Part shown: piece by piece, positions 2,077 to 25,074 of the stretch
Position numbering within the stretch: the stretch's first letter is position 1
Layout: each line of letters opens with the position of its first letter
From: Gekko japonicus
Lineage: Eukaryota
Length of the DNA stretch: 64,000 bases
Direction of reading: 5' to 3'
Assembly: GCF_001447785.1 (NCBI RefSeq)
Contig: NW_015174295.1
Coordinates: 119,649 to 183,648 of the forward strand
Notes under the pieces: generated by a model
The model's input: the letters and a program-made list of their open reading frames with translations, nothing else
Told to the model about the DNA's origin: nothing
Databases searched by the model: none
Position numbers and translations under genes: made by a program

Positions 2077-2268
2077 GGTACCTCATGTTTTACAGTCGCT
2101 TCAAAAAGAAAATTTAGAGCCGACGGCCAAACGGACACTGCGTTTTTACATGGTTTCAACTCCCTTAGGTATTTATGAAAGATAACACCTTCTCTTTACT
2201 CAGTAGCGGTGATGAGAAATTTAGCTAGGAATCGATAAGATGGTGAAAGAAGCGAATAGTTGTCTCAC

Positions 2269-2366
2269 ATGAAGCTGCTCATCATCTGTTTGGTGTCTTC
2301 CGAGCTCCTCGAGTTGGCAAAGCTTATAAATGAGCAGTAGACAGCAATCCACGCACACCACTTGAG
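2269..2366 (-). CDS. WDR83OS: WDR83OS coding exon 3 (final exon not seen; before the window or in the gap)
   Basis: TTTGCAG acceptor and GTGAGA donor; [32 protein letters not shown](M); 98 nt. Confidence 0.97.
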
Positions 2367-4225: not shown

Positions 4226-5460
4226 CACCTTAAAAAGGATATTATAGCTTTGGGGAAAGTGCAGAAAAGGGCAACCCGAATGATAAAAGGGTTGGAACAC
4301 TTTCCCTATGAGGAAAGGTTAAAGCGCTTGGGGCTCTTTAGCTTGGAGAAACGCTGACTGAGGGGGTGACATGATCGAGGTTTCTAAGATTATGCATGGG
4401 ATAGAGCAGGTGGAGAAAGAGGTACTTTTTTCCCTTTCTCACAATACAAGCACTCGTGGGCACTCCATGAAATTGCTGAGCGGTTGGGTTAGAACGGATA
4501 AAAGGAGGTCCTTCTTCACCCAAAGAGTGATTAACACATGGAATTCACTGCCACAGGAGGTGGCGGTGGCAACAAGCATGGGTGGCTTCAAGAGGGAATT
4601 AGATAAGCACAAGAAGCGGGACCCGCGATACTCGCAGGGGGGAGTATTCCTAAAGGCTCCCGGCCTGCAGAAGCAGCTCCACAGGTAAGCCTTCTTCCCC
4701 ACCCCTGGGCCTCGGCGGCAAGGTGCCTCCCAGCTACGGGCCTGCCGCTCTCCCCCCCACTGATCTTCCCCCCCCTCGGGCACCAGCAGCGAGGCTTGAG
4801 TGCCTTCCAGCCACCAAGCCCACTGATCTCCCCCCCGGGTACTGGTGATGAGGCCTGAGAGCCTCCCAGCCCCCGGGCCCGCCGATCTCCCCCCCCCCCC
4901 CCCGGTTAGGACTGCTCCAAGTGTGCAGGAAAATATCTCTGCCCCCCAAGTGCCCCTGATGTGCAGATTTAGATATCCACACGGAGGGGACAACTTGGCT
5001 ATTAGATATATAGATATGGAACAGAGGTCCATCCGTGGCTATTAGCCACAAGGTATAAATAGGAACTCTCAGTCTGGGGCAACTGATGCTCTGTATTCTT
5101 GGTGCTTGGGGGGGGGGGCAACAGTGGGAGGGCTTCTAGTGTCCTGGCCCCACTGGTGGACCTCCTGATGGCACCTGGTATTTCTGGCCACTGTGTGACA
5201 CAGAGTGTTGGACTGGATGGGCCTTTGGCCTGATCCAACATTGGCTTCTCTTGTGTTCTTATAGGAACTCTCAGTCTGGGGCAAGGGATGCTCTGTCTTC
5301 TTGGTGCTTGGGGGGGGGCAACAGTGGGAGGGCTTCTGGTGTCCTGGCCCCACTGCTGGGCCTCCTGGTGGCACCTGGTATTTCTGGCCACTGTGTGACA
5401 CAGAGTGTTGGACCGGATGGGCCTTTGGCCTGATCCAACATTGGCTTCTCTTATGTTCTT
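4226..5460 (+). mobile_element. CR1 LINE 3' end (ORF2 C-terminus and 3'UTR), interrupted by an insert at ~4613-4990
   Basis: [40 protein letters not shown] and TRGHSMKL...FFTQRVINTWNSLPQEV are typical CR1 ORF2 tail motifs; ends in TTCTTATGTTCTT. Further 3' ends at ~3780-4070, 11625-11910(-), 54451-55170(-), 62661-62960(-). Confidence 0.9.
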
Positions 5461-5793
5461 AAACAGAGTGGGAGGGGGAAATGAGACACACACAGCCAAG
5501 TCCACGTGGTCCTCTGCTTGTTTTAATTATTTGCGATGGCTAAGATACAAAATGCATTTTTACGGAGTCTTACTTTAAATAAAGAGCAGCTGGGGTTGAA
5601 TGCTTTTCTATAATATGTCTCTATGTAGTCACAGGAGGTCACCTTTTTGGCACACTTTGATATTAAACTGGATACAGCAGCTCCTATACTGCCCTTAGCA
5701 TCATTTAATTCTAACCTCTATGGCGATGAGAAGAGTGGTAGTTACTGCAGACAATCCTTAAGGAAGGGTTTATCCAGACACCATAATAGTTAC

Positions 5794-6453
5794 TGTAACG
5801 ATTTCATGTTTTGTGTGTTTGTGTCTTTAAAAGTGGTTTGCATGGCTGTGTGATGATAATGTAGAATGCTGGACAGGCATGTGGTGTGATTGGTGATTGA
5901 CAGAGAGGGGGAGGGAGGATAAGATATGTCAGTCAAGAGTGTCAGTTGAAGGGTGTCTGTTAGAGTTATGAGAGTTGAAAAAGAGAATTGAACAGAGTCT
6001 GTCAGAAGAGAGTGATGTGTTAAAGCAGTTGTTATAAGTTCTGTCTAGTAAAAGAGTTAAGCAGTTTGTTCGTTTTAAGGTCTGAGAGAGAGAAGTCTTG
6101 TGTGTGGTATGAAAAGTTAAAGCATAAAGAAACAGTAACCATATATGGTCTAAGGAAAATATTGTTACAAAGTGACATGCCCTGATCCCTGTCAATAAGA
6201 GGGAAGAGTGTGGGAACATCAAATAAATCTACTTTTATTTAAGATAACAGTTCTGAATGAAATTCCTCAGGAAACACATGGTCCTTCGAAAGCCCAGACC
6301 CTGGGTCACAATACCTACCCAGAGAGGAAAATCTTATAGAAAAGGTGTGGGAAAGCCTAAATTTCCCTGGTGGCAGCCGGAATACCCAAAGAAAAATAAA
6401 CCATAAGAACTTTTAAAGTAAAACTAGACCTCCCCAGATAAGAGGTCATCACA
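5794..6453. mobile_element. Solo LTR
   Basis: Begins TGTAACGATT and ends CATCACA; flanked by 5-bp TSD GTTAC (5789-5793, 6454-6458). Confidence 0.8.
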
Positions 6454-7495
6454 GTTACGTTTGAACATTTGGAGTTACTAAGAGCTGGCCATTTTTTTTA
6501 CCTTAGGTGTTTTTCAAAAAGTGATCAAGGCCGCGATCCTAAAAGCCCTTTCCCGGGAGTAAGCCCTACTGAATAAAACGGGACTTACTTCTGCTTAGGA
6601 CTGCCGCCTAGGAGTACAACCCTGTAGCCAGGATGTGAAACATTTAGGATAGCAACGCTTCTCAGCACAAGCTCCACAAGGGGTGCTGGGATGAATAGGA
6701 GCGAGCGAACAGAATGCAGCAGAGAAATGTCTACACGAGAAGAAGCTAAGCAAAGTCCTTGAAGTCTGAGACAGCCAGTCTGCAGGAGAAGACTTCCCTC
6801 AGTGACTGAGTCTGACGGTGCACAATCTCAGCTATATTTGGGATTCCTTCCAGGGCTGCCCTGTAACTAGCTCCATGCAGGACTTGAACCTGGGGTGCCA
6901 CGCACGCTAAGTCAATACACCAACATGGACTGTGATTCCTATCAAATTTTAAATATATACTTTAGGAATACTTTACTCTGGAAATTACAGAGGAATCTTA
7001 TTGAAACTGTACTGCAGTTATTAATTCACATCGTTATTCAAAGATTCACTTATTGATTTTAGTTCATGCCCTTCTAAGAGAGACCTTATCTAGAAGAAAA
7101 GAAACGCACTCTGATGCAAGGGTCTTGATTTCTAATTGCACCTCCTTACACAGAACAAAACTGATGATAGTGTTCCAAACAACTGTTTTACCTACTGCAG
7201 GAGAGGTACATGGTGGCCATTCAGTTCAGAGAGCTTCCTTTAACTGTTCCATCTATTCCGAATTAGACTGCCTTGTGCTATCATTCTGGTCTTCTTCCAA
7301 AGCCATTAAAACGTACAATTTTTAATATATATTTTTTGTATTCCATGCCTTTATTCTAATTGCTGGAAAGTTCACTAACATGTCATAGCAAATGTATTCG
7401 TTATACAGTAATGAGCAGCTGAAATATTGTTTATGATCTATGTGATCAGTATCCTTGATACCATGATGTCAAAGGACTAATGGCCGACTGCTTAC

Positions 7496-7601
7496 CTTCA
7501 GCATTAAACCACACATACTGAAAATCATTCCCAGGAGATTCATGTAGTCTGGTGTAGGGTCTTCCAAGGTAGGGTTGTTCTCTGTAGATGGAGGCTTGTA
7601 C
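7496..7601 (-). CDS. WDR83OS: WDR83OS coding exon 2
   Basis: TATAG acceptor and GTAAG donor; (R)[35 protein letters not shown]; 106 nt, in phase with exon 1. Confidence 0.97.
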
Positions 7602-7767
7602 CTATAAGTTGAAGAATCACTCATTATGACAGAAGGAAAACATGTTATTATGCTTGAAAATAAAAAAATTAGCTTTATCCACAGCAATATCAAGACTGAA
7701 TCGAGATTACAAATTTTACACTTCCCTGCTGCACATTCATGCCATTACAGGTCAACATTCACAGCAT

Positions 7768-8428
7768 ACTAGTATAGATGGTACATGACACCTAAGAAAA
7801 TAGCAAACATGAACCAGAATATGTCTAGTAAATGTTGGAAATGTAAGAAACATGAGGGCTCATTCTATCATATGTGGTGGACTTGTGACAAAGCTATAGA
7901 CTTTTGGACTAAAGTCCATGGAGAAATGCAAAAAATACTAAAATTTTCCTTTAAAAAGGCACCTGAGATTCTGCTTTTAGGACTTAGAATGGAAGAATTA
8001 AACATGAAGAAAAAGACTCTATTCTGGTATTTAATAACAACTGCGAGGATGGTTTATGCACAATGTTGGAAGCAAGAGAAAATACCAGAAATAGAAGATT
8101 GGATACAAAAAGTTCTGTTCATGGCAGAAATGGACAAAATAACAAGAAAATTAAACAACTAAGAAGACCAAGAATTTTTTGAGGAATGGGATGACTTCAA
8201 GATATATCTAGAAAAAAACTGGGATGTAAAAAGAAATTTACTTTGTTTAGAACAATATTAAGTATAAGATTGTTATCTTGGAATGTATATGACTTTTGGA
8301 CCACAGGGGAAACGCATTGCGGGAAGCCATTGGAGAGGTGGGAGGGAGTTGGGAAACTGATTTCAAGAAATTGTTTTTGACTATGTGAAATATATTAAGA
8401 AAAAATAAAAGTTTCTTGACAAAAAAAA
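7768..8428 (+). mobile_element. 5'-truncated L1-clade LINE (ORF2 C-terminal Cys domain, 3'UTR, polyA)
   Basis: CWKCKKHEGSFYHMWWTC zinc-knuckle region; AATAAA and A-tail; 14-bp TSD AACATTCACAGCAT (7754-7767, 8429-8442). Confidence 0.9.
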
Positions 8429-10728
8429 AACATTCACAGCATGCTTGTCCCAGTGTCTAAGCAGTACCAACACCTCCAATACCACCCTCTCACAAGAGGT
8501 ACTCTTCACTGCTCTTGAAACATTTTAAACATCTTCCTTATACTTAAAAAAAATGTACCACAGCGGGTTATAAATATAATAAATAAAAATAAATAAAAGG
8601 GAAGCCATTTGCTTAAGCCAAGAAGAGGCCTTGTTTCTAAAAGGGCAAAAAAAAAAGCGGGGCAGAATTCAACCCCACATTTGGACGTCCAGTTCTTACA
8701 AGTCATTCAAGCAGTTGTATAGCAAGTCAATGCCCCCAAACTATGAAATCTGTGAGTTATTTCTAAAGGCTTATGGGCAGTTTTGAGATTAAGAAAGTAC
8801 ACAGAATTGTGTTTTGAATGACTGGTAGGCATCTCAACATGAGACACATGTAGACAAACTTATCAGAAGCCAGCAATTTTTAAGAGTGGCAAAACATAGG
8901 CCCAAAGACCACATCGGATTTTTCTATGCAGTAAAGTAATATGAAACAATACAAAGGGCCCATCTCTCCCCCATACATCTTTACAGTTGTACACAGCTGA
9001 ACTAAAATGATGCAGATGGAGGAGGATTTGCATACAAAGGAGCAAGCATCTATGTCTGCATAAAGATGTGCACATCTCCCCCCCCCCCCCTGCCATCCAT
9101 TCATCAGTTGGGACATAGCCTTTTGAGGGAGAAAGATTCTTCATCCTAGTTGCAAGATGGTCAGTGTGGTACAGTGGTTAGAGGACTGGACTAATATCTG
9201 GGAGACCAAAGTTCACATCCCCACTCTTCCATAGAAATTTGCTGGGTGACGTTGGGCTAGTCATGCACTCTCAACCTAATCTATCTCACAGGGTCATGGT
9301 CAGGGTAAAATGGAGAATGATATAAGGCACTCTGAGACCCCATTGGGGAGAAAGGTGAGGTATAAAATTAAGTATATAAATAAATAAGGGAAGGGATGAA
9401 GTTAATACAGCCTGGCTAGCTAGTGCAATTTGTTCCTTTACCCCAGAGCATACTAAAGCCATCCAAGTGCACAGCCAGGTAATATCTCAGTCCCTATATG
9501 TTTCTACCCCCCTGTTCAGTATCTCTCCACAGCCTCTCCTATCATAGATTTTACAGTGAAAAGGACAATATACAAACAACAGAAAAATCACTGTTAATTA
9601 CCAAATCCAATCCATTTTATTATTCTTGGCTAGACAGAATATGTCTTAGCCGTTTATCTAACTGTTCAGCTGAAAACCACAAATAACAGGAACACTGCTC
9701 CTGCTTTAACACTATGTTAATATAACAAGAGTGGGTTACAGTTGTGGAACTAGGTTTGCAAAAGAAACAAAAACTGTAAACACAGATGCTAAAGAATGTC
9801 TATGAAACAGAATTATTATCAGTGCAAGGTCAATTCATCAATAGTATAATACATTCAATAGCTGAATAATGAAACAATTATTGACGATCCTCTCCGGAAT
9901 GTAATGTATCGTTTCGATGTCTGTATCTTCTTCTGAACAGTAGTTGAATACATAAGGTGGAACCTTGTAAACATTTATAAAACAATGTGTAAGAATACTT
10001 AAGTACAGTTTTTGTTTCTTTTGCAAACCTATTAACACTGTGTTACACTGACAAACTTTTAAAGAACATCAAGCAGGTTACGGTATGTGCCCTCATTTTG
10101 CCAATAAGTAAAGGAATTAGGAGCAAAGACTATTTTAGGTAAAGGTTCCCTTGCTCGAAAGCCAGTCGAATCCGACTCTAGGGTTACGGAACGCTGTTAC
10201 CTTCCCACCGAAGTGGTACCTATTTATCTACTTGCAATTTCTTGCTTTCGAACTGCTAGGTTGGCAGGAGCTGGAACTAGAGACAGGAGCTCACCCCGTC
10301 TTGCAGCACCCGGGTCTTGAACTGCTGAACTACTGACCTTCCACAGCCTGCAGTTCAGCGTCTTAACCACTTGAGCCACCGCAGCTCCAAAAAGACTATT
10401 TTACAGGGCAACAATTCCACTCAATGGAGGTTAGTATTTACTTGAACAAAATTATTTTAATCTTGTTTCTTTACTTTCATCATTACCTGGCTTATTTTGC
10501 AGACCTAAAACCATCAGTGTTACTGTTTTCTGTTTTGTTACATTTTAATACATACCTATTATAGTGAAAAATAGACACTATATAAGGGGAATATACATAT
10601 CATACACTCTGCTGCTCCCTCATGTGCATTCAAGAAACAAATCAAGGATGCGACTAGTAGGAAGTTGTTCACAGCTACTGAAATCAATAGGGCCTTGAAT
10701 TAGTGGTCACATCCATGTTGGATTTTTT

Positions 10729-11220
10729 AGGCTGCGGTCACACGAAGCATTAGCCATGCTGCAGAGACAGAAGATAGGCGGATTTTCCAGGCGCGATCAC
10801 ACCGCCACATCTGGGAAGTGTAGAGCTCCCGTGGCGAACCCGAGGCTTCCCGCCGAAGATGCGCGGTAAAAAAGTTTCCAGAAACCGCAGGGCAAGGGCG
10901 GGCGTCTGATCGCGTTCCGGTGGTAGTTCCGGCGCCCGCCCATGTCCCCTCGCAAAAAGGTTTCCCCCCCCCCCAAGTCTCCACGGATGCGCACAAGCAC
11001 CCAACGGAGCATGCGCACACTTCAGTTTAAAAAACAACAACAACCCCGTTTGCCCTGCGCCCCGCTTCTTTGCCACGCCGCAGGACTGTGGAATGATCGG
11101 CACCTCCCCCCTACCATGGGACCTCCACGGTAGGTCTGCTCGCGCAACTGCGCATTATTTAGCCCCGGGGCAAACAGCCACATTTCCCCCCCGCATTTTC
11201 CTGCCTGTGTGACCGCAGCC
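10729..11220. mobile_element. Non-autonomous TIR element (GGCTGCGGTCACAC...GTGTGACCGCAGCC); relatives at ~14002-14636, ~15408-15774, ~42846-42974
   Basis: Matching terminal inverted repeats and a shared internal motif (CATCTGGGAAG) between several copies; superfamily not determined. Confidence 0.7.
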
Positions 11221-12119
11221 ATAGTGACAAAAGCCCAACTGGCTTTCACATGAAGGACACTTGAAGCACAACTAGTACTGAAGACGGATCTAGATATCTC
11301 CGCTGAAGGTAGTGGGCCTAATATAGAAATACATAAAAACAATTTTCTACATTCTCAGATGACATTATTTTGTCACAACAAGTCAGCTCCCCCAATGGAC
11401 TATAAAAGTACACCTCTCTGTGTGTGAAGTGTGATGATGCAAACACTGCCACGCCTCTTCATGTCTGTGATGTAACGAGCATTAGAGCCGGCTCTGGCAA
11501 TGCTGTAAAGGTTCTGACTTCTTGAGCTACCTTACGTCATTGGAACACTCACATCGTTTTGTGCTTTTTAAGAGATTCTACTAATCAAGACCTCCTCCTA
11601 ATATAGCAAAAACCTAGCACTTTACATAAGAACATAAGAGAAGCCAATGTTGGATCAGGCCAATGGCCCATCCAGTCCAACACTCTGTGTCACACAGTGG
11701 CCAAAAATACCAGGTGCCATCAGGGGGTCCACCAGTGGGGCCAGGACACTAGAAGCCCACCCACTGTTGCCCCCCCAAAGCACCAAGAATACAGAGCATC
11801 ACCTGCCCCAGCTTGTGAGTTCCTATCTATATCTTGTGGCTAACAGCCACTGATGGACCTCTGCTCCATATGTTTATCCAGTTCCCTCTTGAAGCTGTCC
11901 GTGCTTGTTAAGCTATTTTTTTTTTAAAAAAGTCAAAGTCAAATGTACAGATCTACTTTCCAGTCCCGAAGGGCACAGATCCCTTGACTGACAGCACCCA
12001 CCAGCAACAACACCTACACCCACTCCCTCCTCCTATATAGCATGGACTGGACAGCACTATTGCCTTTGAACTGAGACTAGTTCGTGAAGATAAGTCACTC
12101 AGACTCACGTCGCTTTTTG

Positions 12120-12712
12120 CCCAGTTTGGTGTAGTGGTGAAGTGCGCGGACTGTAATCTGGGAGAACCGGGTTTGATTCCCCACTCCTCCACATGCAGCC
12201 GGCTGGATGACCTTGGGTCAGTCACAAGTTCTCTCAGAGCTGTCCTTGAAAAAGAGCCGTTTCTGTCAGAGCTCTCTCAGCCCCACCCGCCTCACAGGGC
12301 GTCTGTTGTGGGGAGGGGAAGGGAAAGGAGTTTGTAAGCTGCTCTGAGACTCTGAGTGAAGGGGGGGGGAAGGCTCACACAATGTGGGGCAGAGGTCAAG
12401 GAACCTGGGAGAAACTGCCACACACAGGAGAGCCAGTTTGGTGTCGTGGTTAGGAGCGCAGACTCTAATCTGGGAGAACCGGGTTTGATTCTCCCCACTC
12501 CTCCACTTGCGGCTGCTGGTGTGACCTTGGGTCAGTCACAAGTTCTCTCAGAGCTGTCCTTGAAAAAGAGCAGTTTCTGTCAAGAGCTCTCTCAGCCCCA
12601 CCCACCTCACAGGGTGTCTGTTGTAGGGAGGGGAAGGGAAAGGAGTTTGCAAGCCGCTCTGAGACTCCCTTGGGTAGTGAAGGGCGGGGTACAAATGCAA
12701 TCTCTTCTTCTA
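12120..12712 (+). mobile_element. Two tandem tRNA-headed SINEs (Squam3-like). Other copies at ~22013-22290, 29190-29432(-), 35470-35752(-), 37567-38058, 43375-43668, 56820-57100(-), 61406-61700, 63370-63910, 63911-64000(-)
   Basis: Pol III A/B-box head GGTGTAGTGGT...GGTTTGATTCCC followed by a conserved body and a (TCT)n tail; many dispersed copies. Confidence 0.85.
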
Positions 12713-12989
12713 TATCCCCCCTTTCCCACAAGACGTGTCCCTGCTCTGTCTATCTTCCTGTTGACAAGGTAAACTTCTCTGGCCCCCTTCCTCCGCCCTT
12801 CCTCATTCGTTGCCATGGTGATCTCTCATCGCCTCCCCCCCGCCCTCTTCAAAGGGACTCCCGTGAACCTCAGCGCCCCCCTGTCGTAACCCAGTGCAAC
12901 CCTTCCACGCGACACGGCCTCCTTTCCCAGCTGCCCGGGTCCTCTCATGCCCCTGCCGGGGCGCTGCCTCCATCATACCCATGGCTGAC

Positions 12990-13039
12990 CTGAGCACGCG
13001 ATTAGGCCGCCGCGGGTCCGCCACGTTGTTGCCGGACAT
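12990..13039 (-). CDS. WDR83OS: WDR83OS (Asterix/PAT10) coding exon 1
   Basis: ATG at 13039 gives MSGNNVADPRRPNRVL(R), matching the N-terminus of human WDR83OS (MSTNNMSDPRRPNKVLR); 50 nt followed by donor GTCAGC. Confidence 0.95.
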
Positions 13040-13710
13040 CGCGACCTGTCCCCAGCCGACTCCAGGTAGCCTCTCCGACTTCCGCTTCCTTTCAGCGCGA
13101 TGGGCGTAGATGGGGGGCAACAAATGCAGTAACACCGCCGTGCTCGAGATCTTTGGTTCCGGAAAGAGGGCGGCGAACTCTGACCGACGGACGCTCAGGT
13201 GGGTCCTGTTCAAGGCTCCCTCTAAACTGTTGAATCCTGTGAGCAAAACTTCTACTTGGTGAGCTCCTGGCATTAAAATTGTGAGCGAGCCATTTGGCTG
13301 CTGCATGAATCAGTTTGCTCTGGAGCCCTCCTTCCTGAGCTGAGACAAAAATCTGAGCCCGAGGCTAAAAAACTGTGAGCCAGCTCACACTAACTCAGCT
13401 TAGAGGGAACACTGGCTCCTGTTTTATTTCGCGTCCTCCTCCGTACTGATTCAGGTAACTTCGCGGAACTCTCTTTTCTTGGGGAATATCAGCCTTTGCT
13501 CTACTGGAAGGCGAAGGGGTTGGGGAGAAGAGACCCGCGGAGGAGAACAAGCGGAACTAAAGCCGCCGCGCCCGGTAGCTACGCGCTCCGGGGAGCCAAT
13601 ATGAGGACGGACTTTGTGCTTTTCTTGTCCATTTTCGTCCTTGTTGTTTTGATCCGGCTTGCAGTAGGCATTAAAGGGTTAAGAAACCTATAGGGAGAGG
13701 TTTTAGGTAA
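13040..13710. promoter_or_regulatory. Bidirectional CpG-rich promoter region of WDR83OS/WDR83
   Basis: CpG-dense sequence between the divergent genes; ETS-like ACTTCCG near 13078 and CCGGAAA near 13160; candidate non-coding WDR83 first-exon donor AG|GTAAGG at 13707/13708 and candidate acceptor near 14974. Confidence 0.65.
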
Positions 13711-13777
13711 GGTTCGCAATCCCTGTTAAATGGGACTTGGGTCTGTTGGGAAATCTCTGTAAAAAGGCAATGGGGGC

Positions 13778-13996
13778 TAGGGTTGCCAGCCTCCAGGTGG
13801 GGCCTGGGGATCTCCCGCTTTTACCACTGATCTCCAGCTGACGGAGATCAGCTCCCCTGGAGAAAATGGCTGCTTTGAAGGGGAGACTCTATGGCACTGT
13901 ACCAGGCTGAGGCCCCTCCCCTCCCCAAACCCCGCCCTCTCCTGGCTCCACCCCCAAAGTCTCCAGGTATTTTCCAAACCAGATTTGGCAACCCTA
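13778..13996. mobile_element. hAT MITE, TIR TAGGGTTGCCA
   Basis: TAGGGTTGCCA...TGGCAACCCTA with 8-bp TSD ATGGGGGC. Confidence 0.85.
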
Positions 13997-15146
13997 ATGG
14001 GGGCCCCGGTCACACGGGAGGATTTGCCCCGCCTAACGGACGGGTTGAGGGCGCATCAAACGGGTGCGATCATACGGCAACATCTGGGAAGCGTAGCGCA
14101 CCCGTCACCAACCCGTACCATCGGCCCGAAGAAGCGGATTTAAAAAGTAACAGCAAAAGGGTAGTGGCAACCGGAAAACGCAGGTCGCAGGCAATGCTCC
14201 CTCTAAGCTGTGGAGTCTGGTGAGCAAAAATTCTACTTTGTGAGCTGCCAGCATTAAAGCTGTGAGCGAGCGATTTGCCCACTGTCTAAATTAGTCTGCT
14301 CTGGAGCCATCCCTTCCTGGGCTAAGACAAAAATGTGAGAGCCAGAGGCTAAAAAACTGTGAGCTAGCTCACACTAACTCAGCTGAGAGGGAACACTGGT
14401 TGCAGGCAAGCGTAGGATCGCGGCAGCACGCACATGTGTCCCGTAGCATGTCTGATTGCACCATGCCGGTTCTTCCTGGCCTTTGATGCGCTTCAACATC
14501 GCCATGTGATCACTGGCTATCGCCATATGAGCGGCACCTTGGGGAACCGTATGATCGCGTTACCGCACATCTTTTGGATCCGGCGTTAAAATGCCTCCCT
14601 TCCACTGTGGATTTTCCCGCTCCTGTGACCAGGGCCAGAGTTGGCCTCAACTGGCTGTAGATTGAGAGACCTTAAGAAAATTGGGGGGGGGGGGGGTTTA
14701 GGGGTTTTTCGAAAATATACAAAGTCCTAGATATGTACAAGTGGTTTATGCTACAAAAATGTTGTTAACTAGTTTGGAGCGGAACGGTGGAAAGAGGATC
14801 TAGTCGACTGACCAGATATTAAGGCAACATAAAGTAATCTAGAGTGGGCACTCCTTTGCCGATTTTGCTTTCTAGTGATGCACTGTCTCTAGTTCTAATT
14901 ACCATTGTAAGGGAAATTGTAGCTTTGTTGGGTTTAGAGCAGAGGATTTATTTCTGTCCCTGTGTTATTTCTAGCCCTGTGGTGTTCCAAGATGAAAAAA
15001 CTACCAGAAGCAAAACATTCCTAAGCCTTCAATCCAGTCTGGGATATTCCTGGTGCATGAAACTTTGCAGTGGACGTTGCTGTGTCATCAAATGTATGGG
15101 AGCATCACTCACAGCATATGTGTGAAGCAAGTTGCTTTTCTTCATC

Positions 15147-15249
15147 ATGGCTTTTCCAGAGCCAAAACTAAAGAAACCTGAGCTGCCTACAAAACTGCTG
15201 GGCACATTGCAATGTAAACAGGGAGCTGTCAGAGCTGTAAGGTTCAATG
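15147..15249 (+). CDS. WDR83: WDR83 (MORG1) coding exon 1
   Basis: ATG at 15147; MAFPEPKLKKPELPTKLLGTLQCKQGAVRAVRFN; donor GTGAGT; matches the human N-terminus MAFPEPKP...QGAVRAVRFN. Confidence 0.96.
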
Positions 15250-16145
15250 GTGAGTGCATCCTCAATCCTGCACAGTGGACATTGGTACATAATTATTAGG
15301 GCTAAAGACGCTGGGAAAGAGAGCCCTTGTTTTATGATCTACAAGGAAACTGGGATCTATTGTGTGACATGGCCCCAGGTTTTTTTTTTAGTGATTTGTT
15401 AGATCAAGGCCCCGGTCACCCGGGCCGGATATCACGGGGGGGAGGGGTGGCTAATTGCCCCGGCGCAGTTTGATCCGCGATTACGTGCTCAGACGCACCA
15501 GCGGCACACCACGGGGCCTTCCCTCGGCGCCGGCGGGTAAACAAGGGACCGGAGGGGAATGCCATGCACCGGCGCGATCATACCACGGGCATCTGGAGGC
15601 AGCCTGTGGCAGACATTTACTAGTACCTTGGAGGTACTAGTTTTTTAATGCGCATCTTCGGCGGGAAGCCATGGGAGCACTACGCTTCCCAGATGTTGCG
15701 GTGTGATCTCGCCCGGAAAATCCGCCTATCATCCGTCTCTTTAGCGCGGCAAATGCTCCGTGTGAATGGGGCCCAAGAAAGTTATTGCAGTGGGTGTGGG
15801 GAGGTGCTGAGAATTTTTTTTTTGACTGCATGTGAATGGTGCAGTCAGTGTAACTCAAATGGATAATGTCACAGGCTGGAACATGACTTGTGGTGTTCTT
15901 AGTAATAACAGCCGTGGAAGCACTGCTTGTTGGGAGATATAGGCCTGGTAGCACAGAAATCAGGAAGTAGAAAGGAGGAGGTTTGACCTGGGCCTAGTTT
16001 ATTTTACTAAGTGATGCTGCATTTGTTTTGTTTTGCTTGTTTAACTTAAACAATAAATCTGGTTTTGAACTTAAATTGTACTCAGTAGCTCGATACAACT
16101 GTAGTGTGGTGATTCTTAGCCTTTCTTCTTCTCTTTTTCCCCAAG

Positions 16146-16266
16146 TGGACGGGAATTACTGTCTCACTTGTGGCAGTGACAAGTCACTCAAGCTCTGGAA
16201 CCCCCACAAAGAGACTCTCCTCAAGACATACAGTGGCCATGGCTATGAGGTCCTGGATGCAGCAGG
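16146..16266 (+). CDS. WDR83: WDR83 coding exon 2
   Basis: (V)DGNYCLTCGSDKSLKLWNPHKETLLKTYSGHGYEVLDAAG; AG/GTAAG boundaries. Confidence 0.97.
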
Positions 16267-16557
16267 GTAAGCGCTGGGGGAGAGGAAGACACATTTGTTA
16301 GAACTGTTCTCTTCCCTCTGTGGGCCCCTCTGTATACACATTCAAATCTATTTTTCCTACTTTTGTGACTTTAAAAAATGGAATCTAAGTGTCTCTGTCA
16401 GAATTCTGCACCCACTGCTGAATTCTGGGCTCTCTCAGTTCAATGGAGAGAGCCCTCGGAATTGACATCCCTTGAATTAGAGTAGGAGATGTGGAAGCCC
16501 AAGCAATGGCATTTCTGTAGCTGCCGTTATACCTCATCTGTTTCTTTTCTCCCATAG

Positions 16558-16663
16558 GTCATTTGACAACAGCCAGCTTTGCTCATGCGGATCAGACAAG
16601 ACGGTTGTGCTATGGGATGTGGCAACGGGACAGGTGATTCGCAAGTTCCGTGGCCATGCAGGG
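16558..16663 (+). CDS. WDR83: WDR83 coding exon 3
   Basis: SFDNSQLCSCGSDKTVVLWDVATGQVIRKFRGHAG; CATAG/GTAAG boundaries. Confidence 0.97.
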
Positions 16664-16846
16664 GTAAGATATGTTCTGTCCTTTTTGGGTTTCAGGGAAA
16701 TGTCTCCACTCTTATTCTTAATAAAGTGAATTCCTTTGGACTTTCAATGAGGGTTAATAGCTCTGTACTCTGTCTTGCTAGAGCGGGCTGTGTTAGTGAC
16801 TTAGAGAGTTTTAAGGACAACTTAAACCGTTTGTGGGATTGCCAGG

Positions 16847-17346
16847 TGTCACGACTCAGGTGGGGTGTCACCTGACGCTGCCACCACTCTGGATTTAGGT
16901 TCCCTTGAGAAGGCCCAGAGCACCCTCCCAAGACCTTCAGACCTCCCTTTTGGCCGAATAACAGGTGCGAGGACCAGGCAGAGTACAACAAGGAAAAGGT
17001 TTATTTTATAGGAGGTCAAACAACAAGGTGCAGAATAATAACAGTAAGTGGGTGAAAAGAAATCAAATGCCCTAACGTGTCTAAATATATAGTGTCCCTA
17101 GCTCACTATCTCAAGTGGCCTTACACTACTCACTCTTCCCTCAGGATGAGGGTCTCTCCCCTGTAGCAGCCTTCCTTCTGCTCTGCCACCAGCCCTTTTG
17201 TTCCCCAGCCCTCTTCTTCCCTATTGGTCAATTTTGGCTCCAAAACCTCTCGAGAACTTCTGGGAGTTTTAGGCCCAGCCTCACCTACTGCTAGCCAGGC
17301 TCCCCGGGCCTAGTAGGCCTCTGGTGGCACAGCCCAGATCATGACA
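16847..17346. mobile_element. Solo LTR in WDR83 intron
   Basis: TGTCACGA...TCATGACA termini with 5-bp TSD CCAGG. Confidence 0.8.
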
Positions 17347-17522
17347 CCAGGCTACTTAAACTGAGAGACTCGGACAGTGAAACTGAGCACACAGGTGCAG
17401 AGAGCGGGGGCTATCTGTGACCATCTCCCCCGCACAAAAAAGATACCAGTTGCTTTGCTAGTTAAGGGTGAATTTAAATAAAAGTTACACGGTGTTGTCT
17501 ACAAGAGTACTTTGTGTGTTAG

Positions 17523-17904
17523 CAGGGCTATTTTTGGGCAGGAACGCACAGGAACGGAGTTCCAGCTGGCTTCAGAGTTGGCCACGCCCACTACAGCCAA
17601 AACCTCTGTGCATGTGTGGCTACAGAGTGAAGGCCTGGAGAGCGAGACACACACCCCCGGTGACTCTGAGGCGGGCGGGCCAGGGGGGCCCTGGAAGAAT
17701 CAGGGAGGCATTTAAATGTCTCCCCGTGCCTTTCCTAGCCTTTCCAAGGGCCGGCTTGCCCGGGTTCCCCGCAGCCATGGGACGCCCGGGCAAGCCAAGG
17801 GGAGGCATGGGGTGTGGCCTGATATGCTAATGAGTTTCTGCTGTTGGGTGTGGCCTGTTATGCTAATGAGTTCCTGCTGGGCTTTTTCTACGAAAAAAGC
17901 CCTG
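17523..17904. mobile_element. hAT MITE, TIR CAGGGCT(A/T)TTTT (family B); relatives at 20396-20756 and 35953-36326
   Basis: TIRs with 8-bp TSDs TGTGTTAG here and GTTATATA at 35945/36327. Confidence 0.85.
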
Positions 17905-18130
17905 TGTGTTAGTATTGTGGGATGGGAGTAATGCTGGAGGCTAGAGCTCTGTGAAAATAATACAAGTATGCAGGGGTTGAAGTGATCAGTGAGATGGAGA
18001 GTAAGAGATAAGTTTTACAAAAGGTCATCCTCAACAGCACACTTGAGTCTGATTCCCAGGATGAGGACGTTTCTATGTAGCCTCTGGGAAAGCACTTGTC
18101 CCTAATCTCTTCCTCTCTGTTATCGGGCAG

Positions 18131-18179
18131 AAGGTAAACTGTGTCCAGTTCAGTGAAGAGGCGACTGTGATCTTGTCAG
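18131..18179 (+). CDS. WDR83: WDR83 coding exon 4
   Basis: KVNCVQFSEEATVILS(G); GCAG/GTAAGG boundaries. Confidence 0.96.
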
Positions 18180-18277
18180 GTAAGGACTGCTTCTTTTCTT
18201 GCCAGTCGTTTCCAGATAATTGGTTTTCTTGTTTTGCTTAGTTGGGGTTTTTTGCTTGCTTGTTTGCTGTCCGGCAG

Positions 18278-18404
18278 GATCGATTGACTCCAGTGTCCGC
18301 TGCTGGGACTGTCGTTCACGCAGACCAGATTCCATCCAGATACTTGATGAGGCCAAAGATGGCATCTCCAGTCTGAAAGTGTCAGATCATGAAATCCTTA
18401 CAGG
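18278..18404 (+). CDS. WDR83: WDR83 coding exon 5 (donor non-canonical, GG|ATAAAG)
   Basis: SIDSSVRCWDCRSRRPDSIQILDEAKDGISSLKVSDHEILTG; the phase of the next exon requires an end at 18404, where the intron begins AT rather than GT. Confidence 0.9.
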
Positions 18405-19153
18405 ATAAAGAGAGGTAAGGTGGAAGAGGTATCTGGAGCTGGAGAAGACAAACTCCGTGCTCTGCTGAGCTCAAGCCAAACTCTCATGGAGCCTATCAAG
18501 CACTCCCAACCTTTTTGGCTCATCTGTAGTGGGCTATGAGAATGACCCATATGACCACTATTGGAATACAGCGTTCAAAACATTATCTTTTAAATCCTGT
18601 AGCGTGTACAGATTTGAGAATTTTGGCTTATTTTTTATGCAGGCGAGTTTCTATTAAATGCTTAGGAATCAGAGGATACAAGTGTTATAGCGTTAAAGGT
18701 AAATAGGAACTGCGGTGGCTCAAGTGGTTAAGACGCTGAACTGCAGACTGTGGAAGGTCGGTAGTTCAGCAGTTCGAGACCCAGGGGTATGACGGAGTGA
18801 GCTCCCGTCTCTAGTTCCAGCCCCTGCCAACCTAGCAGTTCGAAAGCAAGACATTGCAAGTAGATAAATAGGTACCACTTCGGTGCGAAGGTAACAGCGC
18901 TCCGTGCGCCTTGGTGTTTAGTCATGCCGGCCACATGACCACGGAAACGTCTTTGGGCAGCGCTGGCTCTTCGGCTTTGAAACGGAGATGAGCACCACAA
19001 CCCCAGAGTCAGATTCGACTGGCTTTCGAGCAAGGGAACCTTTACCTTTTTTCCCATCTCAACATTTAGGATTTGTAATTTTAGAATCAGAGGGCTTACA
19101 GTACAGAATTTACTACCCTGGTTGGTTAGCAATGACTTTCTCTCCTTTCTCAG

Positions 19154-19221
19154 TTCTGTAGATGGGCGTGTCCGACGTTATGACCTACGCGCTGGAGAGC
19201 TGTGCTCAGACTATGTTGGAA
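19154..19221 (+). CDS. WDR83: WDR83 coding exon 6
   Basis: SVDGRVRRYDLRAGELCSDYVG(S); CTCAG/GTGAGT boundaries. Confidence 0.96.
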
Positions 19222-19912
19222 GTGAGTGTGCCAGACTTTGTCTGCAAATCGGGTACCTCTTATGAGCCGTCTCTGACTCTCCATTTTGTAGAATTGACAC
19301 TGGCCATTTCTGTTCAATAGACTTGGTGCAGATCCAGCTTGAAGGGTTGCTGTGAAGCCACATCTTTCATCCTCAGTCACATGTCTTTCCAGGGGTCATT
19401 TCAAAGAAAAAGAGGTGCAGGAGCTCATTAGCATAACTCATTGGCATATGCCACACCCCCTGACATCACCGGAAGTGTGTCACAAAGGCACCACTGGACT
19501 GTTTTGGCTTACTAGCTATTGGGGAGGGGGGGAACGTGCAGATCTGTCCTCGCAGAGGGAGAGCTTGTACCTGAATAAAACTTGGCCTTAAAGGTGCCAC
19601 TGGACTGTTTTGGACCAGGGGGGCTCTGCAACTTTCCTGGCTGCTTCTTGCTCTGACTGAGGGCTGCTGGGAGCAGGGGGTGGGGCTTCTTGCATGTGCC
19701 CACCCCCTGGGCTCTTTACTGCCGGAGCTCCGCTCCTGTGCGCTCCTGCAGGAAATGACCCCTGTAGTCTTTCATCGACTCCAGACAGTGGCAGGGCAGA
19801 ATGCAGCGGACTTGGTCCCTGCAAGTTGCTATCCCTGTCTGTCTTCCTTTGGAATTGTTAGCATTGGGCAAAATGCCATCAGTCCTAGGAGCACTCGTCC
19901 TCTTGCTCCTCC

Positions 19913-19914
<2 letters not shown>

Positions 19915-19943
<29 letters not shown>
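19915..19943 (+). repeat. (CA)n microsatellite
   Basis: Direct reading. Confidence 0.95.
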
Positions 19944-19947
<4 letters not shown>

Positions 19948-19985
19948 AAATGATGGAATCCAGCACTGCTATCTTATTACTACAG

Positions 19986-20094
19986 GTCCCATCACGTGCG
20001 TTTGTTTCAGCAAAGATGGACAATGTATGCTGGCTGCTAGTTTGGACTCCACGCTACACTTGTTGGACAAGGACACAGGCGAGATGCTGGGAGA
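19986..20094 (+). CDS. WDR83: WDR83 coding exon 7
   Basis: PITCVCFSKDGQCMLAASLDSTLHLLDKDTGEMLG(E); TACAG/GTGAGT boundaries. Confidence 0.96.
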
Positions 20095-20773
20095 GTGAGT
20101 AATAAATGCAGCAACCCCGTCATTGTGAGGGCAGGATAGAAGGATCATATTAATCCAGTGCTGAAAGATCTGCACTGCTCGCCCATTTAACTCTTCTAAG
20201 CCGCCTCTGGCAGGTTCCTGAAGAGGTGGCATGAAATTTTTCTAAACAAACCAATAAAAATATTGTGACTCCGGTCTAATGTTGTTCCCCGTGTATCTTG
20301 ACTCAAGGGAACCGCGGTTGTACCAGATGGGCTGCCGGGGAGGGCCTGGCCTGTATGGGAGAAATGTTCTCATTCTTATCTGAATCCCCCCCCCCCAGGG
20401 CTCTTTTTGTAGAAAAAGCCCAGCAGGAACTCATTAGCATAATAGGCCATACCCATGACAGCACAGCTCATTCGCATATTAGGCCACACCCCCGTATTAC
20501 CAGAAGTGTGGTCATCCAGCCACACCCACCTTTTGCTTCTTATTCTGTTTACCTTGTTTGTTGTCAAAACCCAGGGCCTTTTTTTGGAGCAGGAACTCCT
20601 TCGCATGTTAGGCCACACACCCCTGATGTAGCCAATCCTAATGAGTTCCTGCTGTTGGGTGTGGCCTATTATGCTAATGAGTTCCTGCTGGGCGTGGCCA
20701 ACTTGGGAGCCAGCCGGAACTCCGTTCCTGTGCGTTCCTGCCCAAAAATAGCCCTGCCCCCCCATATCTCTAG

Positions 20774-20888
20774 ATACACAGGCCACAAGAACGTCACCTA
20801 CAAGATGGACTGCTGCCTGAGTGAGAGAGACACGCATATTGGAAGCTGCTCTGAGGATGGCAAAGTGTATTTCTGGGACCTGGTTGAG
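20774..20888 (+). CDS. WDR83: WDR83 coding exon 8
   Basis: YTGHKNVTYKMDCCLSERDTHIGSCSEDGKVYFWDLVE; CTCTAG/GTGAGC boundaries. Confidence 0.96.
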
Positions 20889-22490
20889 GTGAGCATAATT
20901 GCCCAGGGACAGCGTGGGCATTCGTCAAAGGCACCCTTGTGGTTCCTCTTTGCCTCATGCCAGCAGACCTAGACTTATAATTGTGTGCTATGGAATCTAT
21001 AGAGAATGAATTCCCCTCAGGTGGACCGGGTGCTGTTTAACCCTGGAGAAAGAAACGGACACTCTCTTCCCCCCCCCCCTCCACTACTCATTAGTCACGG
21101 CCTGTGGGAAATGACACATTTCTACTCTTTCTACTGTTTGAGGGAAGGAATAGTGGGTGGTTTGTCTGACCTTAGCTGTCTTGGGCAGGGGTCGTTTCGT
21201 AGAAAAAGAGCTAGGGGAACTCATTAGCATATGCCACACCCCCTGACATCACCGGAAGTGTGTCATAAGGCCACACCCCCTGACATCACCGGAAGTGTGT
21301 CATAAGGCCACGCACCCCGCCCCCAACGGTCCCAGCCGCCGCCACCGGCCTTCCAGCTCCATTGCCAAGCCCCATGAGGGGCCCGGCGGTGGACCTGCAA
21401 GGCCGGCGGGAGTGCAAGGAAGCCCCGCAAAGGCCCTCCCTGGGCCCAGGCAGGCAGGGGTGGGGAGAGGCAGGGAGGAAGCAACTTACCCTCCCTCTTC
21501 TCCTGCCTCCTCCTGGCTGAATGAGGGCCGGAAATGGGGTGGCCGGAAGCAGGGGGCGGGGCTTCGTCATGTGCCCCGCCCCCCGCACCTCACCCGGGGG
21601 AACTGCGATCCCCCCCCAAATTTCCTCTGGTCTTGGGAGAGCTGCTAACAACAGAAGCAGGCTGGCAGCAGAGTTGGTGCAGAATGTTTTTAATCCTAGG
21701 AGTTGCCTGTCATCCACCTGTCGGGTTACAAAGCACTGCATTGTGGGTAAAGCCTTGCCAAAGGCACAGTTCTGATCGATGCAGGGCAAATGACATTTCT
21801 GTCTCCAGTGAGGCTCATGCACAAGCGTGCATCTCTTCTGTTGCTAGACATTTCTTTCCTTGTCCTTTGAATGTGTCAAACTTGGATGCTCCTTCCCAAA
21901 CTTGCTTGTTCAGCAGTAACAATGACTCTGCTTGCCTCTCCATCCTGTAAAATTATAGAGGAAAGAGAGAGGTGATAGTGTTGTGTGTCCTGGGTCCACT
22001 TTTGCCATGTTGAGCCAGCTTGGTGTCGTGGTGAAGTGCGCGGACTCTAATCTGGGAGAACCGGGTTTGATTCCCCACTTGCACCTGGCTGGATGACCTT
22101 GGGCAAGCCATAGTTCTGACAAGAGCTGTCCTTGAAAAAGAGCAGTTCCTGTCAGAGCTCTCTCAGCCTCACCGACCTCACAGGGTGTCTCTTGTGGGGA
22201 GGGGAAGGGAAAGGAGTTTGTAAGCCGCTCTGAGACACCTTTCGGTAGTGAAGGGCAGGGTATAAATCCAATCTCCTCTTCTTCTTGCAGCATTAACGGG
22301 TGGTGACCTCTTCTAGCTTGTAAGCAATGGCAACCACAGTGTAGATGGGACTCTCGATTTGAGTCTCCGGGAGAAAGGTGGACTATGCATGAGGTCAATG
22401 CTCCAGGGCTGGTGGCAGAGGGACCGGGGCGTGTACATCCTCCAGAGTTCTTGTCTTCCTAATGTCTGCAACTTTTCTTCCTCATCGTAG

Positions 22491-22655
22491 GGATCCCTGG
22501 CTACGAGCTTACCTGTGAGTAACAGTGCTGTCCAGTCTCTCTCCTTCCACCCAACTGAGGCGTGCTTGCTCACTGCGGCAGAGGGCCTCGTGCAGCTTTG
22601 GAGGGAGGAGTCGTACACGGCAGGGGAGGCAGAGGAGGAAGGCCCGCCTGCTTGA
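22491..22655 (+). CDS. WDR83: WDR83 terminal coding exon 9
   Basis: GSLATSLPVSNSAVQSLSFHPTEACLLTAAEGLVQLWREESYTAGEAEEEGPPA*; CGTAG acceptor; TGA at 22653-22655. Confidence 0.95.
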   Translation, partial: GSLATSLPVSNSAVQSLSFHPTEACLLTAAEGLVQLWREESYTAGEAEEEGPPA

Positions 22656-22872
22656 TCTTCACCGCGGGATCGACGGAACAGAGAACTCCAGGTGCAGGGA
22701 TTTGAGAGGCTCTAACGTACCTTTCATGCCAAGCATCACATTGTGCTCACTCAGGCCCGTAGCTGACAACTTCTTGCTCGGGGGGGGGATGTGTTCCCTG
22801 GCGGGGGGGCTGCCATTATATGTCTGTGCGGTACTGCCACGCCGTGCCCATACTTTTAAATAATAACTAAAT

Positions 22873-22878
22873 AATAAA
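22873..22878 (+). terminator. Candidate polyadenylation signal of WDR83
   Basis: AATAAA about 220 nt after the stop codon, followed by T/GT-rich sequence. Confidence 0.7.
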
Positions 22879-25074
22879 TCCTCTACATTTTAATGTGATT
22901 TAGTGTATTCGGGGGGGNNNNNNNNNNNNNNNNNNNNNNNNNNNNNNNNNNNNNNNNNNNNNNNNNNNNNNNNNNNNNNNNNNNNNNNNNNNNNNNNNNN
23001 NNNNNNCTTGGGACGGTGCCTGTTGCCTTCGTGGTGGTTGGGGGGGGGGGCGTGCCGGCGCCGAGAGGTTGAGAGGAGGGAGAGGTGCCCGGGGTGAGCA
23101 GTTCGCTGTCCGCTCCCCCCCAGCCGCTCGTGGCCTCTTTGTTACCCGGGTGGGACAGGAATGGCTCCAGCCAGCGGCCCCTCTCGTTGTTACTCTTGTC
23201 CCCCTCCCCGCCGGGAGAAGCGCTCGGTGCCCCCCCCAGCCTCCACCGCCTCCGCTGGCCTTCCTCACGGGGGAGGCACGGCTACTGTGGCACGGCTACC
23301 GCTCCAAGCCACCAGGGGCACCCTGCCTCCCTCCCTCCCACATCACCCCGCCCGCGGTGGACGCGAATTGCCTCGTCATCGGAGTCCCTGGCCCACCGCT
23401 CACTTGCTCAGTGCCGCCCAGCGAGAAGCGCCGGGCCAGGCCTCATCCCGCCCAGCGGAGGCCGACCCAGGGCCAAACTCAGCCGTCTAGAGCCGGGGGC
23501 AGGGGGAGAGAAGAAGTGATCGATCAGGGGTGAGGGGCTCGCAAGAACCATGGGGGGGGGGTGGCCTGGGCCCCTCATTAGCTACTGGCCTGTGCTCACT
23601 GTCTCTGGAAAGGGGTGTGGCATCAGACTAGGACTGTTCACACACTAGACATCATTTCTTCAAGAGGCCTAGCCCTTTTATGCCTTTTAGTGGTATAAGG
23701 CTCCTTCCTCTGCCAAAGTTGAAATACGTCCTACCTCTTTGGGCTGTCACTCTGCGATATCCTGTATTGCAACTACTAATTCAAGTGTAATGTTCCACAA
23801 GGGTGGCCATGTTAGTCTGTTACAGGAAAACTGAACAGGAGCTCGGTGGCACACCTTAGACACCAACAGTCTAAATTCCTGTATAAACTTTTGTGTCTCA
23901 GAACTCACTTCACCAAACGTGACTGTGACTCAAGACAGTTTATGCTGACATATATATATTATTAGCTTTCAGGGCAGCACTGGGCTCCTGCTTAGTCCCT
24001 CTTAGTGATGGGTTTTATTCTTGGGTCGTGCTGCAGCAAAGTAACTTGGTTAAAGTCAAAACACAGAGGTCCTATCAGAGTACACATGCATTCCTTTGTA
24101 TGACTTTTCACCATTCATGAGTTTAATATGATAGAGAATGCAAGAGTTGTGTTTCAGCTGCAGCTGCTTAGAACCATCCCTTTCATTAAATGGTTGCCAT
24201 ATTAAAATGGGCAGAAGGAAACCACCTCTGTGCTTTGGGTAAGTAAAGATTTCCCTTGCTCGAAAGCCAGTCGAATCCGACTGTAGGGTTGCGGTGCTCA
24301 TCTCCATTTCAAAGCCGAAGAGCCAGCGCTGTCTGAAGACGTTTCCGTGGTCATGTGGCCGGCATGACTAGACGCCGAGGCGCACGGAACGCTGTTACCT
24401 TCCCCCTGAAGTGGTACCTATTTATCTACTTGCAAGTTCTTGCTTTCGAACTGCTAGGTTGGCAGGAGCTGGAACTAGAGACGGGAGCTCACTCCGTCAT
24501 GCGGCACTCAGGTCTCGAACTGCTGAACTACCAACCTTCCACAGCTTGCAGTTCAGCGTCTTAACCACTTGAGCCACCGCAGCTCCGTGCTTTGGGTACT
24601 TGGGGTTTTAAAAAAAACACACCATGGTGTAGTTTCCTGCCTAATTTTAAATGTATTTTCTCAGTGCTACAGGTAATTTTGCTGTGTTAATATCCTACAT
24701 TTTTGTATTTCGACAATACTAATCAAAAATCAAGCAGAGAAGAGTTTTCCTGTGGTGGAATTCAAATCCCTCCTGTTTCCCATGTGAGGCAGTGTGGAGA
24801 CGACAGGGATTATCTTCTATTAATCTGTAATTGTGGATTTTCCCTTGCCTCGCAAAAAAACCCTGGAGGTGTTTATCTCTCTCCCAGGCTTTCCTTCTGC
24901 CAGATGTGATATGGTTGGAGTAGCCACACTTCCTTCCCTGTGTGCATTTGCCTGTCCAAAGGGTATGCATTTGCAGGAAAACATTCTTCTGCCATCTGTA
25001 GCGTTCCCAGGTGTGTGGGAATTAGAGAGATTCCACATAGAGTGATGGGTCCTGTGGGAAGGAAAGGCGGGTGG

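What the first reader, a model, noticed from the sequence alone, without database searches (positions are those of the whole stretch)
18400..18420. WDR83 exon-5 splice donor is AT, not GT, and read-through hits a stop
Seen: the exon ends ...CTT ACA GG|ATAAAG, and the next exon (19154) needs exactly this phase. The other seven donors are canonical GT. The intron ends in AG and the 5' end does not match the U12 consensus ATATCCTT. Using the strong downstream donor GAG|GTAAGG at 18414/18415 includes GGA TAA, a premature stop about halfway through the WD40 propeller. Inference: a +1 G>A loss-of-function allele or pseudogenisation of MORG1, a rare AT-AG intron, or a consensus base error.
Basis: partly seen in the sequence, partly recalled or inferred. 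Interest (0 to 1): 0.7.

Follow-up and report, generated by a model that had tools for sequence, protein, structure and literature searches.

The report
Pseudogene bases pasted into working WDR83
The odd AT splice site is in the assembled sequence, but reads from other animals of the species show it belongs to a broken second copy of the gene while the working WDR83 gene has a normal GT site, so this is most likely an assembly mix-up between two similar copies rather than new biology.

Summary
The AT at 18405-18406 is in the assembly, but it is not the donor of the working gene. The genome holds a second, decayed WDR83OS-WDR83 block (copy B, G000:C9463, 7.8% diverged, 8-nt frameshift in exon 8) with the same AT. 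The two copies are letter-identical over 18298-18548 (251 nt), far beyond chance. Sequencing runs split them again. A genomic contig of run X1 has G at 18405 plus seven linked differences at 59.7 of 125 depth; a related organism (X19) also has G. In RNA, correctly spliced exon 5>6 reads that could be phased carry window-type exon 6 (3 of 3); reads spliced at the +10 GT, giving a stop at codon 170, carry copy-B exon 6 (5 of 5). So the window gene is intact in four other samples, the AT is a lesion of a transcribed pseudogene, and the window carries a pseudogene patch. Most likely this is an assembly chimera (about 0.82). A true gene-conversion allele in the assembled animal is not excluded (about 0.12), since its own reads were not identified. 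A functional AT-AG intron and A-to-I editing are rejected. Side result: the working copy sits between TIPIN and MAP2K1, the decayed copy near MAN2B1.

The parts
18405..18406 (+). AT at the 5' end of WDR83 intron 5 in the assembly; a copy-B (pseudogene) state. The working copy reads G at 18405.
   Evidence: sequence; X1 contig G at depth 59.7 of 125, X21 unspliced reads G 3 of 3; X19 G at 18 of 18 depth (one contig)
18415..18416 (+). GT 10 nt downstream; the donor used by copy-B transcripts; adds 10 nt and a stop at codon 170
   Evidence: stop; 8 joint reads in X22, 0 in X21; 5 of 5 loose ends carry copy-B exon 6
18298..18548 (+). 251-nt run identical between window copy and copy B; the chimeric patch. 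Read-supported differences hidden in it: 18345, 18360, 18405, 18409, 18414, 18417, 18427, 18445, 18451, 18457 (window holds the B state), and 18491, 18495, 18512 (one B-type contig differs from both assembled copies).
18278..18404 (+). WDR83 coding exon 5 (127 nt)
19154..19221 (+). WDR83 coding exon 6; site 19166 tells copy A from copy B and was used to phase junctions
15147..22655 (+). WDR83/MORG1 copy A, nine coding exons, 320 aa, intact apart from the patched donor
18710..19050 (.). High-copy SINE inserted in intron 5 of copy A only (looks Sauria-SINE-like, recalled); swamped the joint table of the first read lay
1..25056 (.). Window part of the duplicated WDR83OS-WDR83 block (starts about 2 kb before the window, C14585:117664; partner G000:C9463:984370-1001579)
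19939..20118 (+). Second A/B identical run (180 nt) covering all of exon 7; possibly another patch, not tested with reads

Best explanation
The AT donor is a lesion of a decayed, still transcribed second copy of WDR83 elsewhere in the genome, and it most likely entered the working gene only in the assembly, where a stretch of the pseudogene was used for both copies. Shown: copy B exists, is broken elsewhere (8-nt deletion in exon 8, broken WDR83OS), has the AT, and its transcripts splice at the GT 10 nt downstream, giving a stop at codon 170. Shown: a GT version of this stretch exists in genomic DNA at about half depth, and correctly spliced transcripts carry window-type exon 6. Inferred: the short-read assembler merged or gap-filled the two copies across four shared stretches of 33-47 nt that chain through exon 5 and the start of intron 5, and kept the pseudogene letters at 18345-18457. 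Inferred: copy-B transcripts would be nonsense-mediated decay substrates.
For: Exactly two copies found in G000 by DNA and protein searches. A/B divergence 7.8% over 25 colinear blocks, yet 5 perfect runs of 100 nt or more against 0.26 expected; the longest (251 nt) covers the odd donor. X1 genomic contig 18375-18487 has G at 18405 and 7 linked changes including non-A>G ones, depth 59.7 of 125, matching single-copy depth at other A/B sites. X21 RNA is almost all copy A (16 of 17 reads at L002:1524; 12 of 12 at 18345), shows G in 3 of 3 unspliced reads and only the exact junction (2 reads, 0 at +10). X22 holds both copies: exact junction 5 reads, +10 junction 8 reads; loose ends phase 3 of 3 exact-site reads to copy A and 5 of 5 +10 reads to copy B, Fisher p 0.018. 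Organism B (X19) has G, so GT is likely ancestral. The true differences are separated by shared stretches of 47, 44, 33 and 36 nt, long enough for k-mer paths of the two copies to join. Nearby assembly trouble: N gap with a repeated flank at 235-1888 and a garbled WDR83OS last exon beside an N gap. Mouse Morg1 null is embryonic lethal (PMC10377003, abstract), which argues against a homozygous null, by inference across taxa.
Against: No run known to be from the assembled animal was laid, so assembly error and a real conversion allele are not directly told apart. A shuffle test found no shortage of surviving poppable bubbles between the copies (11 seen, 11.0 expected at k 33; P 0.06-0.92 over k 25-41), so systematic bubble popping is not shown. 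X6 gave only an AT-bearing contig at this site (0 of 77.3 depth with G) while giving only copy-A letters at L002:1572; contigs drop variants, so this is not absence, but it does not replicate X1. X6's B contig matches the assembly at 18491 and 18495 where X1's B contig differs, which weakens a two-way mosaic argument and could mean real conversion between the copies. Read counts are small, and G at 18405 is tied to copy A by sample purity and depth rather than by one molecule spanning a window-specific mark.
Confidence: 0.82

Rival explanations
1. The assembled animal truly carries a gene-conversion allele: a 113-251 nt tract copied from the pseudogene into the working gene, killing the donor, probably heterozygous.
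For: The patch is one continuous tract of B letters. No deficit of surviving bubbles, so an assembler cause is not proven. Copy B seems to vary at 18491-18512 between X1 and X6, which could be conversion the other way. Heterozygous Morg1 mice are normal (PMC10377003, abstract).
Against: Five such long identical runs occur in about 11 kb of aligned sequence, many for copies 7.8% apart on different contigs with different neighbours. Four other samples (X1, X21, X22, X23) show an intact copy A. X1's G share (48%) fits two intact A alleles.
Confidence: 0.12
2. The window copy itself is becoming a pseudogene and a working WDR83 lies elsewhere.
For: Copy A has many more repeat insertions than copy B (about 27 kb against 17 kb for the same block).
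Against: Only two copies were found and the other has a frameshift. Correctly spliced RNA carries copy-A marks.
Confidence: 0.03
3. A functional non-canonical AT-AG intron, spliced directly or after A-to-I editing of the A to inosine.
For: Exact-site junctions exist (X21 2 reads, X22 5). Edited AT-AG introns are described in human: C14orf37, NUP210, CRYZL1 (PMC4176328, passages).
Against: G at 18405 is in genomic contigs (X1, X19) and linked to G>A, A>C and G>T changes that editing cannot make. AT-bearing transcripts use the +10 GT (5 of 5 phased). No U12 motif; best inverted match near the donor is only 17 of 22 columns. WDR83 is not named in the main text of PMC4176328 (0 hits; supplements not read).
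Confidence: 0.01

Closest known systems
Chimeric or collapsed paralog sequence in short-read de Bruijn assemblies
   Same: Two similar copies share letter-identical patches bounded by shared stretches above about 31 nt; reads recover both versions. Bubble formation and crushing in such assemblers is described in PMC7423139 (passages on heterozygous alleles).
   Different: Here the two paths are paralogs 7.8% apart, not alleles, and the collapse is local: most poppable bubbles survive. The assembler used is not known to me from any call.
Pseudogene-to-gene conversion alleles such as CYP21A1P to CYP21A2 or GBAP1 to GBA1 (recalled, no call)
   Same: A short tract of pseudogene letters, including a splice lesion, sits inside an otherwise intact gene.
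   Different: Those pairs are tandem and about 96-98% alike (recalled); these copies are 92% alike and have different neighbours. No read here shows the recombinant molecule.
A-to-I-edited AT-AG introns (C14orf37, NUP210, CRYZL1; PMC4176328 Table 2 passage)
   Same: AT-AG in the reference, G seen in RNA.
   Different: Here G is also in DNA and is linked to non-editing changes.
WDR83/MORG1 (PDB 9s2f chain WD)
   Same: Exons 5 and 7 match residues 128-167 and 193-227; 320 against 315 aa.
   Different: This genome has two copies of the WDR83OS-WDR83 pair, and DHPS lies on a third contig, whereas pig WDR83 overlaps DHPS and lies beside MAN2B1 (PMC4124853 passages).

Membership tests
Functional AT-AG intron (U2- or U12-type) | AT is the genomic state of the expressed, correctly spliced allele | tested here: not met
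   Genomic contig with G (X1); exact-site junctions phase to copy A, whose unspliced reads have G
Functional AT-AG intron (U2- or U12-type) | U12 5' consensus and branch site | tested here: not met
   No match in the 749-nt intron (motifs recalled)
A-to-I-edited splice donor | A in DNA, G only in RNA | tested here: not met
   G in DNA contigs of X1 and X19, linked to G>A, A>C, G>T changes; DNA and RNA not from the same animal
A-to-I-edited splice donor | Long complementary sequence pairing with the donor | tested here: not met
   Best local inverted match in 16001-22600 is 17 of 22 columns
Transcribed unprocessed pseudogene (copy B) | Keeps introns and flanks of the parent | tested here: met
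   All 9 exons and introns colinear
Transcribed unprocessed pseudogene (copy B) | Disabling lesions | tested here: met
   Lost exon-5 donor with +10 splicing to a stop; 8-nt deletion in exon 8 in the assembly, not checked in reads
Transcribed unprocessed pseudogene (copy B) | Transcribed | tested here: met
   B-type reads at 18345: X22 12 of 23, X23 1 of 10, X21 0 of 12; spliced B reads
Assembly chimera of paralogs | Sequence in the assembly is absent from reads of the assembled individual | not testable with these tools
   No run known to be from that animal; both lays used
Assembly chimera of paralogs | Excess of perfect identity between diverged copies that other samples resolve | tested here: met
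   5 runs of 100 nt or more against 0.26 expected; 13 read-supported differences inside the 251-nt run; the other 4 runs not tested
Assembly chimera of paralogs | Systematic loss of short bubbles between the copies | tested here: not met
   11 surviving against 11.0 in shuffles at k 33
Gene-conversion allele | Single molecules join recipient-specific flanks to donor-specific letters | tested here: inconclusive
   None seen in X1, X21, X22, X23, X6; short reads and contigs, other animals

The most novel reading that the evidence does not exclude
The patch is real: a transcribed WDR83 pseudogene left at the ancestral site converts its relocated, essential daughter gene at an unlinked locus, creating a splice-null allele that segregates in the species.
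Probability: 0.1. Interest if true: 0.4.

Novelty: not a real feature. Interest (0 to 1): 0.12.

Why it matters
As biology it matters little: the working gene has a normal donor. In practice it warns that this assembly would make an essential gene look lost, and that other patches (exon 7, exon 1, WDR83OS) may carry pseudogene letters, which can mislead gene-loss and selection scans. If the patch were a real conversion allele, it would show an unlinked pseudogene acting as a source of null alleles. The side result, a gene pair that has likely moved by duplication while the parent copy decays, is a modest point of genome evolution.

Tried and rejected
A-to-I editing and a functional AT-AG intron: rejected. 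A two-way mosaic as proof of assembler collapse: suggested by X1, not upheld by X6, so not relied on. Systematic bubble popping: shuffle test gave no deficit. First lay's joint table was swamped by SINE reads (87 joints not shown); junctions were read on the copy-B locus instead. The run search listed no indexed holder on record as RNA; this is not used as evidence. Of 24 runs listed, 6 were laid (X1, X6, X19, X21, X22, X23); X20 and the guessed-RNA contig runs were not. A Pfam scan of six exons failed on a frame slip and was not repeated. DHPS synteny did not choose between the copies (third contig). Earlier-finding look-ups returned nothing. Papers: no report of this duplication in the listings (one search was too loose: none of its 12 rows holds WDR83). 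PMC11909109 and PMC8954370 gave no synteny; (TIPIN, MAP2K1) was seen as listing only. No supplements were read.

Full report
Observation. The window reads ...ACA GG then AT at 18405-18406. A nine-exon model gives an open 320-aa protein only if intron 5 runs 18405-19153, AT to AG. Seven of eight donors are GT. The GT at 18415 gives a stop at codon 170, and skipping exon 5 a stop at codon 129. Exons 5 and 7 match human-length WDR83 in PDB 9s2f (E 1e-18 and 1e-16).

A second copy. DNA and protein searches of the own genome found two places, the window and G000:C9463. The block from about 2 kb before the window to 25056 is duplicated at C9463:984370-1001579, with 842 substitutions in 10,858 aligned bases, 7.8%. 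Copy B is broken. It has an 8-nt deletion in WDR83 exon 8, further 3- and 9-nt deletions, 14 silent and 15 amino-acid differences (a 16th row at the stop codon came from alignment slip beside the 9-nt gap and is dropped). Its WDR83OS has a stop in exon 1 and lacks the stretch that holds exon 2. Copy B has the same AT.

A suspicious patch. The two copies are letter-identical over 18298-18548. Five runs of 100 nt or more were seen among 854 runs where 0.26 are expected; shuffles gave 0.19-0.28.

Reads, first lay (three raw RNA runs and one DNA contig set on 18050-19330). An X1 contig over 18375-18487 carries G at 18405 and seven more differences (18409, 18414, 18417, 18427, 18445, 18451, 18457) at depth 59.7 of 125. 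With these the donor is a canonical GT. At 18405 the RNA reads show G in 3 of 3 (X21), 1 of 4 (X23) and 0 of 14 (X22). Two silent exon-5 differences (18345, 18360) appear in 12 of 12 and 9 of 9 X21 reads, 11 of 23 and 11 of 25 X22 reads, 9 of 10 and 6 of 9 X23 reads. X1 listed no contig with these two, and the tool warned that some differences were not counted. A second X1 contig (18458-18624) has copy-B marks plus three differences (18491, 18495, 18512) found in neither assembled copy. In all, 13 read-supported differences lie in the 251-nt run, near the 19.6 expected at the regional rate (P 0.07).

Reads, second lay (on copy B, L002:1340-3140, where L002:1632 is window 18405). Two exon 5>6 joints appear. 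The exact site: 2 reads in X21, 5 in X22. The GT 10 nt downstream: 0 in X21, 8 in X22. Loose ends in X22 phase them: 3 of 3 at the exact site carry the window form of exon 6, 5 of 5 at the +10 site carry the copy-B form (Fisher p 0.018; these reads may overlap the joint counts). X21 is almost purely copy A (16 of 17 reads at L002:1524). Organism B (X19) has G at the donor (one contig, 18 of 18 depth), so GT is likely the older state. Against: X6 gave only an AT contig here (0 of 77.3) and only copy-A letters at L002:1572. Its loose ends fall at GATC sites, which suggests a proximity-ligation library (inference). Contigs show presence, not absence. X6 also matches the assembly at 18491 and 18495.

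Mechanism. Shown: the AT belongs to copy B, whose transcripts splice 10 nt late and meet a stop; the working copy has GT and splices correctly in X21 and X22. Inferred: the window holds copy-B letters at 18345-18457 because the assembler joined the two copies through shared stretches of 47, 44, 33 and 36 nt and kept or filled in the wrong path. The shuffle test does not show systematic bubble popping (11 surviving against 11.0 at k 33), so the exact step, merging or gap filling, is open. A real conversion allele in the assembled animal cannot be excluded without its reads; I give it 0.12. A homozygous null is unlikely if the gene is essential as in mouse (PMC10377003, abstract and outline seen).

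Rejected. Editing and a functional AT-AG intron fail because G is in DNA, is linked to non-editing changes, and AT-bearing transcripts use another donor. Edited AT-AG introns are known in human (PMC4176328, passages); WDR83 is not in its main text.

Context. Copy A lies between a Swi3/TIPIN exon (C14585:107612-107752) and MAP2K1 exon 1 (window 39749-39828). Copy B lies about 145 kb from lysosomal alpha-mannosidase exons on C9463. DHPS is on a third contig. In pig, WDR83 overlaps DHPS at 66.6-66.7 Mb of chromosome 2 and MAN2B1 is at 66.72 Mb (PMC4124853, passages); that TIPIN and MAP2K1 are direct neighbours in human is recalled. So the working copy is likely the relocated daughter and the decayed copy the parent (inference, about 0.7).

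Verdict. Not a real feature of the working gene; interest 0.12. No report of this duplication showed in the listings; supplements were not read.

Noticed in passing
window 1-25056 and G000:C9463:984370-1001579; neighbours C14585:107612-107752, window 39749-39828, L011:2025-2228: The working WDR83OS-WDR83 pair sits between TIPIN and MAP2K1, while the decayed copy is on the MAN2B1 contig, the neighbour in pig. Likely relocation by duplication with decay of the parent; DHPS, which overlaps WDR83 in pig, is on a third contig.
   Followed up: partly
L002:1340-3140 (copy B): The pseudogene is transcribed and spliced, with a share that differs by sample: 12 of 23 reads in X22, 1 of 10 in X23, 0 of 12 in X21 (X21 v X22 Fisher p 0.002; mates not separated). 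Tissue or sex unknown.
   Followed up: partly
window 18405-18417: Four of the A/B differences fall in 13 nt: two remove the true donor (+1, +5) and two bring the +10 donor nearer consensus (P about 0.015 at the regional rate, chosen after the fact).
   Followed up: partly
window 9114-9295, 10435-10573, 15192-15308, 19939-20118: Four more long A/B identical runs; the last covers all of exon 7. They may be further patches.
   Followed up: no
G000:C14585 about 119100-119300 (just before the window) and window 235-1888: WDR83OS last exon in copy A ends oddly beside an N gap while copy B has the normal-looking end; a 310-nt stretch is repeated on both sides of the N gap 732-1259. Likely assembly faults.
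   Followed up: partly
L002:3063 and 1340-2452, run X19: Organism B shows two contig versions across this region, one with a 4-nt deletion in exon 6 (depth 11.5 of 27.4), so the duplication may predate the species split, with independent decay.
   Followed up: no
window 2076-25056: Copy A has gained many repeat insertions relative to copy B (about 27 kb against 17 kb for the whole block).
   Followed up: no
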